64,000 nt of DNA, taken from sequence record ON286972; one strand, 5' to 3'. The position numbers were made by a program, and so were the translations under genes. Positions 243-62,397 of the stretch are shown piece after piece. The DNA is from Escherichia phage A4. The notes under the pieces are model-generated. The model worked only from the letters and a program-made list of their open reading frames with translations, searched no databases and had not been told where the DNA came from. The first letter of the stretch is position 1; each line of letters starts with the position of its first letter.

Positions 243-1082
243 ATGAAATTAAATTTTATTATCAACTTTAATGTTAAAGAAACCGATCATTACGCATCAG
301 AAGATGACCGTGTTGCACCAGCTTCGTCTGAATACATCAGAAATGAAAATGTCCATATGCATGAAAATTATTTCGACTTTGGTAATTTTATTATCTACCG
401 TGGATTTAAGGATGTTGTATTCCGTTCCAGATATGAAGACTTTGAACATGCACTCATTGATGTACCGGATGAATTAGTATTCCAGTTCATGTTACTTGGT
501 ATTAAAGATTATGACTTTATAGTTTATAACCATTATACTAAGCGTATTATGATTGGTAATGATTCATATGATCTTACTTATTATTCCAGTACTGATGAAG
601 ATTTAGAAAATATTAAACGCCGTTCTGGTGGTATACGTAATTGTTCATCTTCAAACTCCAGTAGAATGAGTGAAAGGTTTTTTGATTTCAAAAATAGCAA
701 TAATAACGACTGTGAAGACGCGGACAATACTGAACATGTAATGTTTGAAATTGACCACAATAATGGATATAATGACTTCCTTAACGTTCTGAAGCCTTAT
801 ATCAATCATAAATTCGTCAAAGATGTAAATCTGGTGGCACGTGACTTACAGTACAGTGATCGTACTGGTGGTATGCCTGTACCAATGGATCGTGTATGTA
901 CGAACAATACAGTATTCAATGTCCCACGAGAAGATGTTGCATTTGTATTTCTGGCATTTTTGAATTCAGATGCACTATGGGACGATAATGAAAGACAATT
1001 TAGTTCAAGACATATTGAAATAATTCGTCAAAATACATTACTACTGTGGAAGAAATTTACTGAAAATACCCAGGACAAATAA
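243..1082 (+). CDS. Hypothetical protein (279 aa)
   Basis: Track ORF with ATG start; no recognisable motif. Confidence 0.6.
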   Translation: MKLNFIINFNVKETDHYASEDDRVAPASSEYIRNENVHMHENYFDFGNFIIYRGFKDVVFRSRYEDFEHALIDVPDELVFQFMLLGIKDYDFIVYNHYTKRIMIGNDSYDLTYYSSTDEDLENIKRRSGGIRNCSSSNSSRMSERFFDFKNSNNNDCEDADNTEHVMFEIDHNNGYNDFLNVLKPYINHKFVKDVNLVARDLQYSDRTGGMPVPMDRVCTNNTVFNVPREDVAFVFLAFLNSDALWDDNERQFSSRHIEIIRQNTLLLWKKFTENTQDK

Positions 1083-1090
1083 ATTCTTGG

Positions 1091-1099
1091 TGATATAAT
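1091..1099 (+). promoter_or_regulatory. Extended -10 element TGaTATAAT (candidate promoter for the downstream structured element)
   Basis: TGATATAAT about 85 nt upstream of the conserved block; no good -35. Confidence 0.35.
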
Positions 1100-1184
1100 G
1101 ATGAGTGGCAATATATCTTTGTCACTCTTTTTTTTTTAATCCTGAAAGGTTCCATATGGAAATGATTAAGAGCCTAATCCACTC

Positions 1185-1653
1185 GAAAATGTAGAGGGTA
1201 GATGAGTAGTCCTTTCAGTACGAACAGCAGATGAAACCCGTCAGATGTGGGCATATTATGAACCCCTCACGGCAATGCGGCTGTATAAAGAACTCCGATA
1301 AGCACACAGAGAGTTCCTAGATAGACATATAAGGATCGCACCTTACCAGATTTGCTAAGGGAGATTTCATTAGAAATTGCGGTCAACTATTTGTACAAGA
1401 TAGTTGCGTCCAAAATTTGGTGAAATCAAATACCAGTACTGTTCATATGGTACTCGTATTATGTGTCGGGATGTTTAAGACCGACGACCGTTGCTACAAG
1501 AACCGCGATAGAGAGAAACAGAGCAACCCGCTTTCGCCTCGTTAAGAGAATTCGTGATATGAAATATGTGAAGACCACCAGCGTCAAATTTTAATTCTTT
1601 CCCCCAGTGGGGGGATGAAATATGCTCTTCCAAACCTCGTCAATATTAATTAA
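1185..1653 (+). ncRNA. Candidate large structured non-coding RNA, copy 1 of 2
   Basis: No ORF of 60 aa or more; GC-enriched; conserved blocks shared with 61771-62334; hairpins with compensatory changes. Confidence 0.45.
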
Positions 1654-1776
1654 AACCATTTAGTACTATTAGAATTATTCAGAGCGTAGCGATGAATTAA
1701 TTCTACTGATGTTGATTGAGTGCTAACGAAATCAATATCGAGTACATTATTTGATGTTTCCTAAAAAGGAATAATA

Positions 1777-2319
1777 ATGCCTGTATTTTCAAAGAACAAA
1801 ACAACAGAGATCATTTATAAATCAAAAGAATTTGAAGTACTAGAAGAATTTGATAGAGATTCATTTGATGGATATAAAATAGTAAAAGAAAAAGGAACTA
1901 TCAATCATATTGTTGAGTACATGGGAGGTGTAGAACTAGCAAAAATCACTTGTAGACCTACAAAAAACCCAGTAATTTTTTCTGTTCGCTATGGACATTA
2001 CGGAGAAGAGCGATATAATTCTAATACAGTATCAAGGAAATTCCATGTTGTAGATGGGAAATTAGAAGGGGAATCCAGACAATATAGTGTTCTTGGACTT
2101 CCTTTGTCAGTGAAGTACTTCCATCAAGGACATGATGTTACTATTGAAATTATGGATTTTATTGGGTTCAATGGTACAGTAGATGACTTCAACTTCTATG
2201 TATTAGCAGAAGATGAAGCATTCAATATAATGATGAAGTACGGTTCTAGATTTAAATTTTTATATGAGTACAACCTGGACAGTAAACTGTTCGATAATAT
2301 CTTACAGAACTGTCTATAA
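1777..2319 (+). CDS. Hypothetical protein (180 aa)
   Basis: Track ORF, AAAGGA RBS-like sequence before ATG. Confidence 0.55.
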   Translation: MPVFSKNKTTEIIYKSKEFEVLEEFDRDSFDGYKIVKEKGTINHIVEYMGGVELAKITCRPTKNPVIFSVRYGHYGEERYNSNTVSRKFHVVDGKLEGESRQYSVLGLPLSVKYFHQGHDVTIEIMDFIGFNGTVDDFNFYVLAEDEAFNIMMKYGSRFKFLYEYNLDSKLFDNILQNCL

Positions 2320-2333
2320 TTAAAGGAAAATCA

Positions 2334-2948
2334 GTGATATATAATTTTGGTATTAATGACATTCCTGGCGACTCCATACCATCAAGTTTGGATTATCATA
2401 TATATGATAAATGGACTGGAATAATTAGGCGTTGCTATAGTCTTAAAAGAACTGATAAGAATTTATCATACATAAACACAACAGTTTGTGATGAATGGAA
2501 ATATTATTCCAATTTCAAAAAATGGTTTAAACTTCACTATATTGAGGGATATCAATTAGATAAAGATATAATTGGGGGAGATAAAGATATTTACTCACCT
2601 GAAACGTGTGCCTTTATACCTGGTTTAATTAACAGTTGTATAATTGACGGAAATAGAGGTAATAATTATATTGGTGTGTCGTATTTCAATGATGATAGGT
2701 GTTCCAAAAAATATAGACCTGCAATATGTAAATTTGGAAAACAAATACGAAACTTTGGGTTATTTCACACACCTGAAGAAGCTCATCAAGTATGGCAAAG
2801 GGAGAAAATAAAATATCTATATGAAATCATAGAAAAATACAGTTCTGTTGTCGATTTAAGAGTTATTAATGGAATAAAGCGTAGAATAGATATTTTACAA
2901 TATGATTTAGATAATGGTTTGATAACAGAAACAATAAGTAAAATTTAA
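2334..2948 (+). CDS. Putative DNA-binding protein with AP2-like C-terminal region, possibly homing-endonuclease related
   Basis: GTG start after AAAGGA; C-terminal YIGVS..FG.F.TPEEA pattern resembles AP2 domains seen in phage HNH/AP2 proteins. Confidence 0.4.
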   Translation: MIYNFGINDIPGDSIPSSLDYHIYDKWTGIIRRCYSLKRTDKNLSYINTTVCDEWKYYSNFKKWFKLHYIEGYQLDKDIIGGDKDIYSPETCAFIPGLINSCIIDGNRGNNYIGVSYFNDDRCSKKYRPAICKFGKQIRNFGLFHTPEEAHQVWQREKIKYLYEIIEKYSSVVDLRVINGIKRRIDILQYDLDNGLITETISKI

Positions 2949-44834: not shown

Positions 44835-45197
44835 ATGTCAATTCAAGGTAAACAAGTCATGTCTGGTGAGCACCGTGGAACTATCATGCTAATAGAAAAT
44901 GATATTGCACGTATTATTGTATCAAAGACCTTTTCTGAAGATGATGAAGTACTTTTGAGTACTTTTGATGGTGAGGTACTGCGTGATGTGGAAATTCAAC
45001 ACGCACCGAATATTGAAGGTGGGCAGCACTTGAATGTAAATGTTCTATCTAAAGAACAACTCATTGATGCACAAAATAATCCAGAAAAGTATCCGCAACT
45101 TACAATTCGTGTTAGTGGTTATGCAGTTCGTTTCAATTCACTAACAAAAGAACAACAAGATGATGTAATCAATCGTACTTTTACTAAAGGTCTATGA
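44835..45197 (+). CDS. grcA: Autonomous glycyl-radical cofactor (GrcA/YfiD-like)
   Basis: [11 protein letters not shown] and [35 protein letters not shown] are near-identical to recalled E. coli GrcA/PFL C-terminus. Confidence 0.85.
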
Positions 45198-45529
45198 TGG
45201 ACTTAAAACCAATTGTAGTTAACAAATATAAAGAACCATATGATGTGTATATTGGTCGTGGGTCTAAATGGGGAAATCCATTTACCCACATTAATGACAA
45301 ACAAACAAAGGCAGAGTTTATAGTTCCGACACGAGAAGAGTCGATTGAGAAGTTCAGAGAGTATCTTATCCAAAGAATTGAAAATGGTGAGGTTACTATC
45401 GAAGAACTACTTGAATTGGCTGGGAAGCGTCTTGGGTGCTTTTGTAAGCCAAAATCATGTCATGGTGATGTTCTTGTAGAAATAGTGAGTGCAATATTAG
45501 ATGAATTACCAGACGATAATCAAGGATGA
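45194..45529 (+). CDS. DUF4326-like protein
   Basis: [15 protein letters not shown] and [13 protein letters not shown] motifs recalled as typical of that family. Confidence 0.55.
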
Positions 45530-60257: not shown

Positions 60258-60869
60258 ATGTCTAAATATCATGTTTATTATGTAACCAAATTGAGTTTAC
60301 TAGATGAACTCAATCATACTAGTACCAAAATGAAACGTTATACTTATAATGGTATTACTTTCAGATACTTTCCACAAAAAGTACTAACATTCGTTAAGAA
60401 TTGTAAGTGCATTGCTTGTGGCATCGAGGCTACAGAAGTTCGAATCGAACGTTCCAACTGTAGTGATCCGGTATATGGTAAACCGCATTTAAATGTGTAT
60501 GCAGTATGTGGTCTTTATGAAGTTATGATGACTGTAGATCATAATCATCTTGCATCTAAAGGTGGTGCTGATTTGGAGTCAAACTTTAATACAATGTGTG
60601 CGAGATGTAATCAGTTGCGTTCAAATAAAACTGAAACGGTTGATGAATTCCTTGAGAAAGTCAAAAACCGAAATCTACTTGAAGAACATATGAATCGTTA
60701 TTTCAATAAGATTGAGAAGGAAAGTAAACGTCCTACACCAGAAATGCTCGAAGAACGTAGATTGCGTCAAGAGCTATGGGATAACGATCATCTGTGGCAT
60801 GTTCGTGAGTACGGGCGACACATGAAAGCATTAAAAAAGGCACAAAAGCTGTTGGATAAACATGAGTAA
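60258..60869 (+). CDS. HNH endonuclease
   Basis: CKCIACG ... VDHNHLASKGG ... NTMCARCN: HNH motif with flanking zinc-binding Cys pairs. Confidence 0.75.
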   Translation: MSKYHVYYVTKLSLLDELNHTSTKMKRYTYNGITFRYFPQKVLTFVKNCKCIACGIEATEVRIERSNCSDPVYGKPHLNVYAVCGLYEVMMTVDHNHLASKGGADLESNFNTMCARCNQLRSNKTETVDEFLEKVKNRNLLEEHMNRYFNKIEKESKRPTPEMLEERRLRQELWDNDHLWHVREYGRHMKALKKAQKLLDKHE

Positions 60870-60882
60870 TATGTTATAATAG

Positions 60883-60908
60883 GGACTTGAGAAATCAAGT
60901 CCTTTTTT
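60883..60908 (+). terminator. Rho-independent terminator
   Basis: Hairpin ggacttga-gaaa-tcaagtcc followed by TTTTTT. Confidence 0.6.
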
Positions 60909-60922
60909 AATGGAGAAAATAA

Positions 60923-61279
60923 ATGAAATCAAAAATCTTTTTACCACAGTTAATGTGGCATCTTGCAGAGTTAGATGAAGATGATGTGTATACAGACTAT
61001 GGTGCATGGGATGACAGTACTGAAACCGTTGGTCCAGATGTGCAGTACAAAATCATTTGCAATGAAAGTAAAGGGCATAGACGATTTACTGAAGAATTTG
61101 ATCTTGTTTTTCTTGACATAAACGAGAACAAGTATTATCATTGTACGTATGAACGAGGTTTAACAGAATATCGACCACAACGACCATTCGAGTATGAAAC
61201 GGATGGTGTTAAGTGCAATGAAGTTTCTGTTACCAGAGAAGAAATTATCACTTATAGAACTTTGTGGAAATATGTGTAA
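60923..61279 (+). CDS. Hypothetical protein (118 aa)
   Basis: GGAG RBS. Confidence 0.5.
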   Translation: MKSKIFLPQLMWHLAELDEDDVYTDYGAWDDSTETVGPDVQYKIICNESKGHRRFTEEFDLVFLDINENKYYHCTYERGLTEYRPQRPFEYETDGVKCNEVSVTREEIITYRTLWKYV

Positions 61280-61677
61280 TGCTTAAAGATTTAGATTTTT
61301 CAAACTTAGAAATTGTTAGTGCTGTGAAAAATATCTCTGACATGGGAGACGAAAAGACAGTACTGTTAACTATTACATTTGTCAAAGAAGAAGATAGTTA
61401 TTTACATCTTACAGGTATTGAAGAACTAATTCATAAAACTAATCTACAAGATAATAGGAAGTATATTAAGCTTCAGGCTTCCTATACGAAAAAAACGTCA
61501 AATTTTGTAGACCTAAATAGTGTAGTCAAGGTGGTATTCAATCACCCTGAACAAAAGTACAGAAATGTGTCACGCAATGAGACAGATGCCAGTACTCTAC
61601 AGCTTCTTCAGGATATTGAGTTCATTGAAACAGTATTTGAACGAAGCAGCAAAGAATTGAAAAAAGTTTATATGTAA
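61279..61677 (+). CDS. Hypothetical protein
   Basis: Track ORF 61264-61677 trimmed to ATG 61279 (TAATG overlap). Confidence 0.45.
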   Translation: MLKDLDFSNLEIVSAVKNISDMGDEKTVLLTITFVKEEDSYLHLTGIEELIHKTNLQDNRKYIKLQASYTKKTSNFVDLNSVVKVVFNHPEQKYRNVSRNETDASTLQLLQDIEFIETVFERSSKELKKVYM

Positions 61678-61698
61678 TTGGGACAATACTTTATATTG

Positions 61699-61707
61699 TG
61701 CTATAAT
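61699..61707 (+). promoter_or_regulatory. Extended -10 element TGcTATAAT (candidate promoter for structured element copy 2)
   Basis: TGCTATAAT about 65 nt upstream of the conserved block; weak -35. Confidence 0.35.
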
Positions 61708-61770
61708 TATATTGTAATGGAAAATGTCAGTGGACGTTTTAACAACGGACAAGAAGAACCTACTTCTCTT

Positions 61771-62334
61771 GAAAATGTAAAGGATAGATGAGCCTTCCCA
61801 CTGAGGCGATGAGCAAAAGAAACCCGTTAGTACCATCCAAGTGCATTCATACAAACGCGAAATAAGACACGGATCACACGGCGACACGGCTCAATAAAGA
61901 ACTCCGATAAGCATACAGAGAGTTCCTCGATAGATGTATAAGGATCGCACCTTACCAGATTTGCTAAGGGAGTTTTACTTAAAACAAGCGGTCAATTTTT
62001 CTACGGGAAAGTTGCACCCAAAATTTGAGTAAAACGAGTACTGAATTGATCGAATAGTTCCAGTACTTTAGTGCAGGGGATGAAAATACCTGCGACCGTT
62101 GCATATGACTGCGATAGAGAGAAACAGAGCAACCCGCTTTCGTTCTCCAAAAATTGGACACCCTTGATCCGTCCAAAATATGGAGAAATTCGCAATTCGA
62201 TAAATTCCGATGCCATCAGCGTCAAAATCAAGAACCTTAATTGGTTCTTTTTTAATATCATTCCCCTGCGGGGGGATGAAAATGTCCTCAACAAATCCCG
62301 TCAATCTTTAAAAGTACAATACAATATTAATTAA
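61771..62334 (+). ncRNA. Candidate large structured non-coding RNA, copy 2 of 2
   Basis: Shares ordered conserved blocks with 1185-1653; embedded track ORFs are not conserved in copy 1. Confidence 0.45.
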
Positions 62335-62397
62335 TATGAATGAGTGAGTTATCGTAGATAACGAAACGAATTCTTGAGTTACGAGAGAACGAAGTGA

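What the first reader, a model, noticed from the sequence alone, without database searches (positions are those of the whole stretch)
60258..62334. Both structured elements lie next to putative endonuclease genes
Copy 2 is about 0.9 kb downstream of a clear HNH endonuclease gene (60258-60869). Copy 1 is about 0.7 kb upstream of a gene with an AP2-like DNA-binding region (2334-2948) of the kind found in phage homing endonucleases. This recurring adjacency could mean the elements are, or were, mobile (an intron- or homing-element-like cassette), or that the endonucleases act on the element. With only two instances it may be coincidence.
Basis: inference. Interest (0 to 1): 0.5.

Follow-up and report, generated by a model that had tools for sequence, protein, structure and literature searches.

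The report
Jumbo-phage structured RNA genes beside nucleases
The two "structured elements" are copies of a conserved gene for a large (~0.5 kb), intricately folded RNA that has its own promoter, matches no family in Rfam 15 and is not an intron or a mobile cassette; of the two neighbouring endonuclease-type genes, one is an old fixed neighbour and the other a recent unrelated insertion.

Summary
The coordinates and distances are correct. Gene 60258-60869 is an HNH endonuclease gene. Gene 2334-2948 belongs to a phage "HNH homing endonuclease" family but lacks the catalytic His.

The window comes from a Rak2/121Q-like jumbo phage. The two elements (about 1106-1643 and 61714-62304, + strand) are paralogues of a ~0.5 kb RNA gene. 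Relatives carry 3-5 matching places per genome, and 121Q has exactly four. Each copy has its own TGnTATAAT promoter. The fold has 18 helices including three pseudoknots; 69 of 89 pairs show compensatory changes. Rfam 15 has no match.

The same RNA occurs as one copy per locus in small enterobacterial islands, usually beside a large serine recombinase, with no HNH gene nearby.

The intron/homing-cassette reading fails. The RNA genes sit at fixed syntenic loci and interrupt no gene. Gene 2334-2948 is an insertion found only in this phage (1 of 20 orthologous loci). The HNH gene next to copy 2 keeps its position across at least five genera. Of 44 well-flanked RNA loci, 29 have no such nuclease within 3 kb.

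One pattern remains unexplained. In 121Q, both HNH genes and endonuclease VII lie within about 0.8 kb of three of the four RNA genes.

The parts
1072..1099 (+). Promoter of RNA copy 1: AGGACA, 16 nt, TATAAT, with an extended -10 TG (TGATATAAT at 1091-1099)
   Evidence: Promoter scan. All 24 distinct full copies in the first set carry T[GC]nTATA[AC]T (22 have TG; one -10 is TATACT) 450-606 nt upstream of the conserved 3' end.
1103..1137 (+). Hairpin plus T10 terminator of the upstream gene 243-1082. It overlaps the predicted start of the RNA, so transcripts from the RNA promoter would begin inside its 5' arm (inference).
   Evidence: The same promoter/hairpin/T-run arrangement appears in orthologous copies.
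1106..1643 (+). Structured RNA gene, copy 1 (locus type B). The start is predicted from the -10 box and the end is the last conserved block, CGTCAA. Pseudoknots: 1142-1149 with 1211-1218, 1442-1448 with 1557-1563, and 1490-1494 with 1523-1527.
   Evidence: nhmmer E = 5.6e-123. Covariation. It is 89% identical in DNA to the 121Q orthologue, while the flanking proteins are only 32% and 45% identical.
1777..2319 (+). Conserved downstream gene (PHROG 16210, function unknown). It is the normal neighbour of type-B RNA copies.
   Evidence: It is present next to the RNA in 20 distinct loci.
2334..2948 (+). Insertion specific to this phage: a 204-aa protein of a homing-endonuclease family (PHROG 953/374) with a stretch read by eye as AP2-like and no catalytic His. 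It is unrelated to the RNA.
   Evidence: It is absent from this position in 121Q, GAP32 and all other type-B loci. Homologues are scattered at other positions in 1475 phage records.
2965..3486 (+). Dam-type DNA methyltransferase gene. It marks the downstream edge of the insertion site.
   Evidence: Pfam PF05869 at E = 3.6e-32. The protein is 92% identical to 121Q gp417.
60258..60869 (+). HNH endonuclease gene of the gp513 family, with CxxC...DHN...CxxC. It follows the spanin genes and is a conserved backbone gene.
   Evidence: It has the same position in about 35 Asteriusvirus records and in RaK2, Munch and Yersinia phage fHe-Yen9-04.
60881..60914 (+). Terminator-like hairpin after the HNH gene, which would separate it transcriptionally from the downstream genes
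   Evidence: An annotated terminator lies at the same place in phage Munch.
61680..61707 (+). Promoter of RNA copy 2: GGGACA, 16 nt, TATAAT, with an extended -10 TG
61714..62304 (+). Structured RNA gene, copy 2 (locus type C). Pseudoknots: 62049-62055 with 62195-62201, and 62098-62102 with 62129-62133. It has an internal hairpin plus T-run at 62230-62255, followed by the conserved CCCC/GGGGGG hairpin at 62261-62275.
   Evidence: nhmmer E = 6.6e-115

Best explanation
What the elements are.
- The two elements are paralogous genes for a large non-coding RNA (about 480-600 nt). The family is characteristic of Rak2/121Q-like jumbo myophages.
- Relatives carry 3-5 matching places per genome, always at the same syntenic loci. 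121Q has four.
- Each gene has its own sigma-70-type extended -10 promoter, TGRRACR-N14-TGnTATAAT. It is read from the + strand.
- The transcript folds into a compact structure of at least 18 helices with three pseudoknots.
- The genes are not introns or mobile cassettes.

What the neighbouring nuclease-type genes are.
- They are separate genes with separate histories.
- 60258-60869 is an HNH gene that has kept its place (spanins, HNH, one or two ORFs, RNA, Dps-like gene) across at least five genera.
- 2334-2948 is a recent insertion, found only in this phage, of a gene from a homing-endonuclease family. It sits in the spacer between two conserved genes.

How the RNA most likely works (inferred, not shown).
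- It acts in trans as a stable folded RNA, together with a host component rather than a phage protein.
- The reason is that the same RNA also occurs in small enterobacterial integrative islands, one copy per locus. No protein family was found both near the RNA in the sampled island loci and in the 121Q or window ORF sets.

Why nuclease genes are nearby (inferred).
- The RNA genes sit at junctions between transcription units, with a terminator, a promoter and long spacers.
- Free-standing nuclease genes tend to settle at such places and be tolerated there.
For: The family.
- blastn finds 3-5 places per genome in 61-71 jumbo-phage records.
- nhmmer finds exactly 4 copies in 121Q.

Promoters.
-. 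The CBB paper describes the same promoter class (PMC5259590).

Structure.
- RNAalifold predicts 59 pairs, 30 of them with compensatory changes.
- The curated structure has 89 pairs. 94.2% of cells are paired and 69 pairs show changes on both sides.
- The covariation score is 0.522. The shuffled mean is 0.187 (0 of 500 shuffles reach the observed value) and slid controls give 0.07-0.11.

Strand and coding.
- Helices contain 229 G-U cells against 53 A-C cells. The folding z-score is -2.09 on the + strand and -0.90 on the - strand.
- Indels that are not multiples of three, and frame shifts between copies, argue against coding.

Fixed synteny.
-.

2334-2948 as an insertion.
-. Its family is scattered and sometimes decayed; GAP32_181/182 is a split copy.

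RNA without a nuclease neighbour.
- 29 of 44 well-flanked loci have none within 3 kb, and none of the bacterial-island loci has an HNH-family gene within 3 kb.

No shared neighbouring protein.
-.
Against: - No expression data exist for these phages, so the transcript ends and the stability of the RNA are inferred.
- In 121Q, both HNH genes and endonuclease VII lie 0.1-0.8 kb from three of the four RNA genes. The nominal probability is about 6e-5. That is more than the 'junction' argument comfortably explains.
- The conserved 3' segment (the CCCC/GGGGGG hairpin and the CGUCA block) lies downstream of a terminator-like hairpin in types C and D and in part of the other types. This is odd for a simple trans-acting RNA.
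- HNH and other homing-endonuclease genes were found from record annotation and family-specific HMMs. They were not found by a full domain scan of every ORF.
Confidence: 0.62

Rival explanations
1. Intronless homing on the RNA genes. The His-Me nucleases next to the RNA paralogues use the highly conserved RNA gene as their recognition or cleavage site. T4 Seg and Mob enzymes do this with conserved neighbouring genes. On this view the nuclease genes ended up beside several paralogues for that reason, and some later became fixed.
For: - Two distantly related HNH paralogues (gp170 and gp513, 26% identity, E = 4e-6) each sit beside a different RNA paralogue.
- The RNA is the best-conserved DNA in its neighbourhood: 89% DNA identity against 32-45% protein identity for the flanking genes.
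- A homologue of 2334-2948 lies 3.9 kb from the type-B RNA in CBB.
- One CBB homing endonuclease gene sits next to a tRNA gene (PMC5259590).
- The nominal probability of the 121Q pattern is about 6e-5.
Against: - The gp513-type HNH gene shows no presence/absence polymorphism. It is in the same place in every relative examined, down to 35% protein identity. That is not how an active homing gene behaves.
- It is separated from the RNA by one or two conserved genes and a terminator.
- Type B, type E and all bacterial loci lack HNH genes.
- 2334-2948 lacks the catalytic His.
Confidence: 0.17
2. Replication-origin primer RNA. The promoter plus the structured transcript of about 0.55 kb acts in cis. 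It would form a persistent hybrid near its G-rich 3' end and prime DNA synthesis, as ColE1 RNA II does and as the transcripts of T4 ori(uvsY) and ori(34) do. The 4-5 copies would be the origins of the 350-kb genome. The islands would carry one copy so that they can replicate after excision.
For: - Size and layout: an own promoter about 550 nt upstream of a conserved 3' block with an invariant run of G and an AT-rich stretch after it.
- The promoter belongs to the class that, in CBB, mostly precedes DNA-synthesis genes (PMC5259590).
- The copies are spread around the genome.
- The bacterial islands seen so far show no replication gene within about 4 kb. One island has two ParB/RepB-like genes next to the RNA.
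- The type-D copy has no downstream gene on its own strand, so it is not an mRNA leader.
Against: - There is no similarity to RNA I/RNA II or to any Rfam family.
- GC skew shows no inflection at the loci, although in these phages skew follows transcription and is a weak test.
- Three covarying pseudoknots and many invariant single-stranded blocks suggest more than a primer.
- Nothing here shows a hybrid or an origin.
Confidence: 0.12
3. An RNA-protein nuclease system. The RNA would guide or activate the neighbouring HNH protein, in the manner of the HEARO/IscB omega-RNA.
For: Only the adjacency itself, at loci A and C.
Against: - There is no match to HEARO or any guide-RNA family.
- The HNH proteins are 203-262 aa. 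Pfam (window protein only) shows no domain other than HNH; a RuvC domain was not specifically tested.
- The nuclease genes are separated from the RNA by other genes and by terminators, and their order differs between loci.
- The RNA occurs without any HNH gene in 29 of 44 loci and in all bacterial islands.
Confidence: 0.03
4. A degenerate group I or group II intron, or a remnant of a homing cassette.
For: The elements lie near genes of homing-endonuclease families. 121Q annotates another gene elsewhere as 'associated with group I intron'.
Against: - No intron model matches, even at E <= 10.
- The flanking ORFs are complete, separate, conserved genes.
- Every copy has its own promoter.
- The elements contain no ORF.
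- They are conserved at fixed loci across genera, and their secondary structure is unrelated to intron cores.
Confidence: 0.02

Closest known systems
GOLLD and ROOL RNAs (large ornate RNAs of phages and prophages, function unknown)
   Same: It is a large (about 0.5 kb), heavily structured, pseudoknotted non-coding RNA carried by phages and integrated elements. It is transcribed on its own and has no known function. It is richer in G+C than its surroundings (39-40% against 32-34%).
   Different: There is no sequence or structure match to either family in Rfam 15. The hosts differ (Enterobacterales jumbo phages and islands). There are 4-5 diverged paralogues per genome at fixed loci. Oligomer formation was not tested.
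HEARO RNA / IscB omega-RNA (HNH Endonuclease-Associated RNA and ORF)
   Same: It is a structured RNA of a few hundred nucleotides found near HNH-domain genes in mobile DNA.
   Different: There is no Rfam match. The HNH proteins are small. They are not immediately adjacent to the RNA or co-oriented with it in a fixed way. Most RNA loci have no HNH gene.
[quoted passage not shown]
   Same: 2334-2948 behaves like such a gene. It is inserted precisely in an intergenic spacer, it is present in one phage and absent from relatives, and its family is scattered among many phages with some copies decayed.
   Different: It has no recognisable catalytic His. The HNH gene 60258-60869 is conserved at one position across genera, which is not the sporadic pattern of a homing gene.
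ColE1 RNA II and the T4 origin transcripts at ori(uvsY) and ori(34)
   Same: A promoter is followed by a structured transcript of about 0.55 kb that ends at a conserved G-rich/AT-rich region. There are several copies per T4-like genome. A promoter class linked to replication genes drives them.
   Different: There is no homology. No evidence exists for a hybrid, for RNase H processing or for origin activity. The fold is far more elaborate, with three covarying pseudoknots.
Group I introns with internal homing endonuclease ORFs (T4 td, nrdB, nrdD)
   Same: It is a structured RNA in a T4-like phage with endonuclease-family genes in the neighbourhood.
   Different: It is not inside a gene, has no exons, has no internal ORF and has its own promoter. 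There is no Rfam RF00028 match.

Membership tests
Group I intron / homing cassette | Match to the conserved catalytic core (Rfam Intron_gpI RF00028) | tested here: not met
   cmscan at gathering threshold on the whole window, and at E <= 10 on both elements, gave no intron hit.
Group I intron / homing cassette | Interrupts a host gene, so that the flanking sequences form one reading frame or RNA once the element is removed | tested here: not met
   The flanking ORFs are separate conserved genes with their own start, stop and terminator.
Group I intron / homing cassette | Presence/absence polymorphism of the element between related genomes | tested here: not met
   The element is present at the orthologous loci in every relative examined: 121Q, GAP32, CBB, RaK2, Munch, the Yersinia phage and metagenomic contigs.
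Group II intron | Domain V / Rfam group-II models and an RT-maturase ORF | tested here: not met
   There is no Rfam hit. There is no long ORF inside the element, and no Pfam RT hit in the neighbouring genes tested.
HEARO / IscB omega-RNA | Match to Rfam HEARO, and an adjacent IscB-type ORF (RuvC plus HNH, about 400-500 aa) | tested here: not met
   There is no Rfam hit. The HNH proteins are 203-262 aa, and the window protein has only an HNH match in Pfam.
GOLLD / ROOL / other Rfam large RNAs | Score at or above the family's gathering threshold | tested here: not met
   There are 0 hits on the elements in the window and in 9 bacterial loci. Only chance-level hits appear at E <= 10.
Structured non-coding RNA gene (generic) | Conserved secondary structure supported by compensatory changes, specific to one strand | tested here: met
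   69 of 89 pairs show changes on both sides. 94.2% of cells are paired. The covariation score is 0.522 against 0.187 for shuffles and 0.07-0.11 for slid controls. G-U cells number 229 against 53 A-C cells.
Structured non-coding RNA gene (generic) | Own promoter, and no conserved reading frame | tested here: met
   All 24 first-set copies carry T[GC]nTATA[AC]T (22 with TG; one TATACT). Indels are not multiples of three and frames are not shared between copies.
Structured non-coding RNA gene (generic) | A detectable discrete transcript | not testable with these tools
   No RNA-seq data are available for these phages. The ncRNAs reported for the distant relative PA5oct are not homologous.
HNH (His-Me finger) endonuclease, for 60258-60869 | HNH motif with the catalytic His and zinc-binding Cys pairs | tested here: met
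   Pfam PF01844 scores above its cut-off, and PHROG 23285 matches over the full length. The sequence shows CxxC...VDHNH...CxxCN.
Homing endonuclease gene (mobile), for 60258-60869 | Sporadic distribution: present or absent at the same site among close relatives | tested here: not met
   It is present at the same distance from the RNA in about 35 Asteriusvirus records. It is at the same syntenic place in RaK2, Munch and the Yersinia phage.
Homing endonuclease gene (mobile), for 2334-2948 | Sporadic distribution and precise intergenic insertion | tested here: met
   It is absent from 19 other type-B loci. It is inserted in the 16-nt spacer seen in 121Q. Homologues sit at different positions in other Rak2-like phages, and one is split.
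Homing endonuclease gene (mobile), for 2334-2948 | An intact nuclease catalytic motif | tested here: not met
   There is no Pfam nuclease hit. Only the C-terminal half of PHROG 953 is matched. The family motif is LDKD where HNH enzymes have DH.
AP2-type DNA-binding domain, for 2334-2948 | Match to Pfam AP2 (PF00847) | tested here: not met
   There is no hit at E <= 1. The pattern GV..K..A.I..GK..LG.F.T.EEAH is visible by eye in the alignment, which is a resemblance and not a test.

The most novel reading that the evidence does not exclude
The RNA is an undescribed class of large, triply pseudoknotted RNA with a biochemical activity of its own, such as a ribozyme or an RNA-only assembly. Jumbo phages keep it as 4-5 specialised paralogues, and small serine-recombinase islands have captured it. 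The His-Me nucleases found beside three of the four or five phage loci (two HNH paralogues and endonuclease VII) would be functionally coupled to it. For example, they might cut in or near the RNA gene to start recombination-dependent replication or gene conversion at these sites.
Probability: 0.1. Interest if true: 0.8.

Novelty: new variant of a known kind. Interest (0 to 1): 0.5.

Why it matters
Only a few large, elaborately folded bacterial and phage RNAs of unknown function are known (OLE, GOLLD, ROOL, HEARO and similar). Each has opened new biochemistry.

This is a further such family, and it has unusual advantages for experiments.
- It occurs in cultivable E. coli phages (121Q, PBECO4 and many others).
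- It is present as four or five diverged paralogues at defined loci.
- It is shared with small islands in Enterobacterales chromosomes, which points to a host-directed function.

For genome annotation, the result removes spurious "hypothetical protein" calls laid over these loci. Examples are 121Q gene 516, RaK2 ORF014w and Yersinia phage g159 and g160.

For the question actually asked, it shows that nearness to homing-endonuclease-type genes is not evidence that a structured element is an intron. It also isolates one statistical oddity, nucleases beside three of the four RNA loci, that is directly testable.

Tried and rejected
1. Known RNA families. Rfam 15 at gathering threshold on the window, Rfam at E <= 10 on both elements, Rfam on nine bacterial loci, and ARAGORN all found nothing on the elements.
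2. Hammerhead-like and RNase-P-like motifs (AGAUGAG...CGAA; ACAGAGCAACCCGCUU). I noticed these by eye and rejected them: the residues are not conserved in the way the family requires, and Rfam gives no support.
3. A small ORF after GGGGGGATGAAAATG. Rejected because 1-nt indels shift the frame between copies.
4. Homology with the RNA-seq-defined ncRNA001 and ncRNA002 of the distant relative PA5oct. nhmmer --max found nothing and no conserved block was present.
5. GC skew as an origin test in 121Q. The skew follows transcription direction and is uninformative.
6. A protein partner shared by the islands and the phages. None was found near the RNA. Only a DUF4326 protein in one E. coli island has a phage homologue, and that homologue is not adjacent to the RNA in the phage.
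7. PDB and Pfam searches for 2334-2948 gave no hit.
8. Literature searches for a description of this RNA found none. One search was too broad and was wasted. The supplement of the catalogue of viral structured RNAs is not held in the library.
9. A fourth long-range pairing (c1 1277-1280 with 1534-1537) shows some covariation, but it overlaps two accepted helices and was left out of the model.
Full report
**Origin of the window and the two elements**

The window comes from a Rak2/121Q-like jumbo myophage. The best DNA matches are Asteriusvirus coliphages (121Q, PBECO4, SHEFM2K and others), at about 80% identity for copy 2 and about 89% for copy 1.

The finding refers to two non-coding stretches on the + strand.
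- Copy 1 has its -10 box at 1091-1099 and its last conserved block ending at 1643.
- Copy 2 has its -10 box at 61699-61707 and its last conserved block ending at 62304.

The two copies align as strongly conserved blocks separated by variable blocks. The variable blocks contain indels whose lengths are not multiples of three. There is no tRNA in the window, and no Rfam family matches at gathering threshold. At E <= 10 only chance-level hits appear.

**Check of the observation**

- Gene 60258-60869 is an HNH endonuclease gene. Pfam PF01844 scores above its cut-off, and PHROG 23285 matches over the full length at 2e-112.
- Copy 2 begins 830 nt after its stop codon.
- Copy 1 ends 691 nt before gene 2334-2948.
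- Gene 2334-2948 has no Pfam or PDB match.
- It does match PHROG families annotated as HNH endonuclease. For PHROG 953, however, only positions 198-402 of 420 are matched.
- Aligned with homologues, it shows QLDKDI...YSPxTCxF...LN and then a stretch that I read as AP2-like (GV..K..A.I..GK..LG.F.T.EEAH). That reading is by eye only. There is no catalytic His.

So the coordinates and the HNH call are right. The second protein belongs to a homing-endonuclease family and probably binds DNA, but it is not shown to be a nuclease.

**What the elements are**

blastn finds 3-5 places per genome in 61-71 jumbo-phage records. The hosts are Escherichia, Klebsiella, Salmonella, Erwinia, Yersinia, Cronobacter, Serratia, Pectobacterium and Xanthomonas. 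I fetched the whole 121Q genome. A profile search finds exactly four copies in it, all on the + strand, at 90288-90787, 192762-193317, 247458-248047 and 326620-327150.

Motif scans of IMG/VR, GTDB genomes and metagenomes added many more copies. In all there are 94 distinct sequences.

Every one of 24 distinct full copies in the first set has a -10 box of the form T[GC]nTATA[AC]T (22 have TG; one reads TATACT), 450-606 nt upstream of the conserved 3' end. A TGRRACR box usually lies about 14 nt further upstream. This is the second promoter class described for CBB and GAP32 (PMC5259590).

**The fold**

- RNAalifold on 24 sequences predicted 59 pairs, 30 of them with compensatory changes.
- I then scanned all column pairs for covariation and assembled a structure of 89 pairs in 18 helices on a 36-sequence alignment (A3).
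- The pair-counting tool gives 94.2% of cells paired and 69 of 89 pairs with changes on both sides.
- The covariation score is 0.522. The shuffled mean is 0.187 (0 of 500 shuffles reach the observed value) and the slid controls give 0.07-0.11.

Three helices are pseudoknots. In copy 1 coordinates they are:
- 1142-1149 with 1211-1218;
- 1442-1448 with 1557-1563 (7 of 7 pairs covary, 99.6% paired);
- 1490-1494 with 1523-1527 (5 of 5 pairs covary, 100% paired).

G-U cells outnumber A-C cells 229 to 53, which fixes the + strand as the RNA strand. The folding z-score is -2.09 on the + strand and -0.90 on the - strand.

The elements are 39-40% G+C in a 32-34% G+C neighbourhood. Copy 1 is 89% identical in DNA to its 121Q orthologue. 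The proteins on either side of it are only 32% and 45% identical.

These are therefore genes for a large structured RNA. No family in Rfam 15 matches them. Literature searches found no description of them.

**The intron or cassette idea**

The elements interrupt nothing. The flanking ORFs are complete, conserved and separate genes. In copy 1 the upstream gene's terminator (1103-1127) overlaps the predicted RNA start.

The loci are fixed across relatives.
- Type B (copy 1) is always followed by the orthologue of 1777-2319, then dam, then an NMN adenylyltransferase gene. This holds in 121Q, GAP32 and a dozen IMG/VR loci.
- Type C (copy 2) lies between a DUF7325 gene and a Dps-like gene.
- Type D lies between endonuclease VII and gp595, both on the opposite strand. 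Because of that, the RNA cannot be an mRNA leader there.

No intron feature that could be tested is met (see the membership table).

**The two nuclease-type neighbours**

Gene 2334-2948 is absent from this position in 121Q, GAP32 and every other type-B locus; only 1 of 20 distinct loci has it. In 121Q the two flanking genes are separated by a 16-nt spacer, and in the window the gene with its own ribosome-binding site sits exactly there.

Its family occurs in 1475 phage records of many genera, often in several copies, and at different positions in other Rak2-like phages. In GAP32 a split copy lies between the lysozyme gene and an S30EA-family gene, which are adjacent in 121Q. This is the behaviour of a free-standing homing-type gene that landed near copy 1 by its own route.

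The HNH gene 60258-60869 behaves in the opposite way. It is present at the same distance from the RNA in about 35 Asteriusvirus records. It also holds the same place, directly after the spanin genes and one or two ORFs before the RNA, in RaK2 (51% protein identity), in phage Munch and in Yersinia phage fHe-Yen9-04 (35%). It has its own terminator. It is a backbone gene, and its linkage to the RNA is one old arrangement, not repeated events.

**Does the adjacency recur?**

In part it does.
- In 121Q, a distant paralogue of the HNH gene (gp170; 26% identity, E = 4e-6) lies 533 nt downstream of the type-A RNA. Its relatives lie 1.3-3.5 kb downstream of the corresponding RNA in other genera.
- Endonuclease VII, also a His-Me finger enzyme, is divergently adjacent to the type-D RNA in all 11 type-D loci first examined, at 0-106 nt.
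- Iterative profile searches find no further member of these families in 121Q or in the window.

Three of three such genes lying within three genes of one of four RNA loci has a nominal probability of about 6e-5. That figure is post hoc and rests on incomplete nuclease annotation.

Against a general link:
- of 44 distinct RNA loci with at least 1.5 kb of flank on both sides, 29 have no such gene within 3 kb;
- types B and E never have one, apart from the window's insertion;
- none of the bacterial-island loci has an HNH-family gene within 3 kb.

**The RNA outside jumbo phages**

The same full-length RNA occurs once per locus in chromosomes and MAGs of Citrobacter, Serratia (including a complete S. 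fonticola chromosome), Enterobacter, Silvania and Buttiauxella. It also occurs in 2 of 5426 complete E. coli genomes.

There it usually lies directly beside a large serine recombinase gene at the edge of a small integrated island. A cI-type repressor and a Ner-like gene often follow (my reading of the ORFs; only the repressor was checked against Pfam). In one case two ParB/RepB-like genes lie next to it. In E. coli LR-29-1 it sits in an island between ffs and ybaA, and PGAP annotates nothing under it.

The bacterial copies cluster with type-D phage copies, which implies exchange between phages and islands. Apart from the RNA itself, no protein family was found both near the RNA in the sampled island loci and in the 121Q or window ORF sets. 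This is my reason for inferring that the RNA works with a host component or on its own.

**Mechanism**

Shown:
- a promoter-equipped, strand-specific, covarying RNA gene family at fixed loci;
- independent evolutionary histories for the two neighbouring nuclease-type genes.

Inferred:
- the RNA is a stable trans-acting molecule that acts on or with a host factor;
- the RNA genes sit at junctions between transcription units, with a terminator before them and often an early-type TTGACA promoter after them. Free-standing nuclease genes settle at such junctions.

Rival explanations that are not excluded:
- the nucleases use the conserved RNA gene as a homing target;
- the promoter plus RNA is a primer-type replication origin, resembling ColE1 RNA II or the T4 ori transcripts.

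Explanations essentially excluded:
- a guide-RNA system;
- an intron remnant.

**Verdict**

The intron or cassette interpretation is wrong. The coincidence alternative is right for copy 1. For copy 2 the neighbour is an ancient syntenic one.

The more interesting result lies under the finding: a large pseudoknotted RNA family with no match in Rfam 15 and no description in the searched literature, shared by jumbo phages and enterobacterial islands. There is also an unexplained excess of His-Me nuclease genes next to three of its paralogous loci.

Noticed in passing
L043-L051, L060 and several of L065-L136 (for example L046:3496-4124 and L049:3683-4240): The same RNA of about 0.55 kb occurs once per locus in Enterobacterales chromosomes. 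It lies at the edge of small islands, usually next to a large serine recombinase gene and a cI-type repressor. Only 2 of 5426 complete E. coli genomes carry it. The bacterial copies are closest to the phage copies that lie next to endonuclease VII.
   Followed up: partly
window 1666-1776 and 62305-62397; L003, L013, L026, L028, L137 and L138 downstream of the RNA: In many paralogues a second conserved non-coding block follows the RNA (..GAATTGAG..ACGAAGTGA..AATTCTTTGACAWTCGAAGAWTGGCWAAT). It contains a TTGACA box and looks like an early sigma-70 promoter with an upstream element for the next transcription unit.
   Followed up: no
window 243-1082 and 1777-2319, compared with L002: The proteins flanking copy 1 are only 32% and 45% identical to their 121Q orthologues. 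The RNA between them is 89% identical in DNA, and Dam just downstream is 92% identical in protein. The region is a mosaic of very fast and very slow evolution.
   Followed up: partly
121Q record 135194-137161 (L038:35195-37160): A 2-kb stretch has no annotated gene. It lies after a long run of very small tandem ORFs of about 60 aa. The RNA family is not present there, and its content was not examined.
   Followed up: no
L064:1501-2114 (GAP32_181/182): A homologue of window gene 2334-2948 is split into two ORFs. It is inserted between the lysozyme gene and an S30EA-family gene, which are adjacent in 121Q. It is a decaying copy of the same homing-type family at a different site.
   Followed up: partly
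L049:4775-5490: In Serratia fonticola two nearly identical rof genes (Rho-binding antiterminator) lie side by side next to the island that carries the RNA. This suggests that the serine recombinase integrated into rof and duplicated it.
   Followed up: no
121Q gene 516 (L001:4339-4494), RaK2 ORF014w (L061:6672-7325), Yersinia phage g159 and g160 (L138:5071-5373): Public records annotate small 'hypothetical protein' CDSs, on either strand, inside the RNA genes. These are most likely spurious calls.
   Followed up: partly
window 45188-45529; L060:15035-15637: A DUF4326-family protein encoded in the window (the orthologue of 121Q gp497, between nrdD and nrdG) has a homologue in the E. coli island that carries the RNA. 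It is not adjacent to the RNA in the phage.
   Followed up: no
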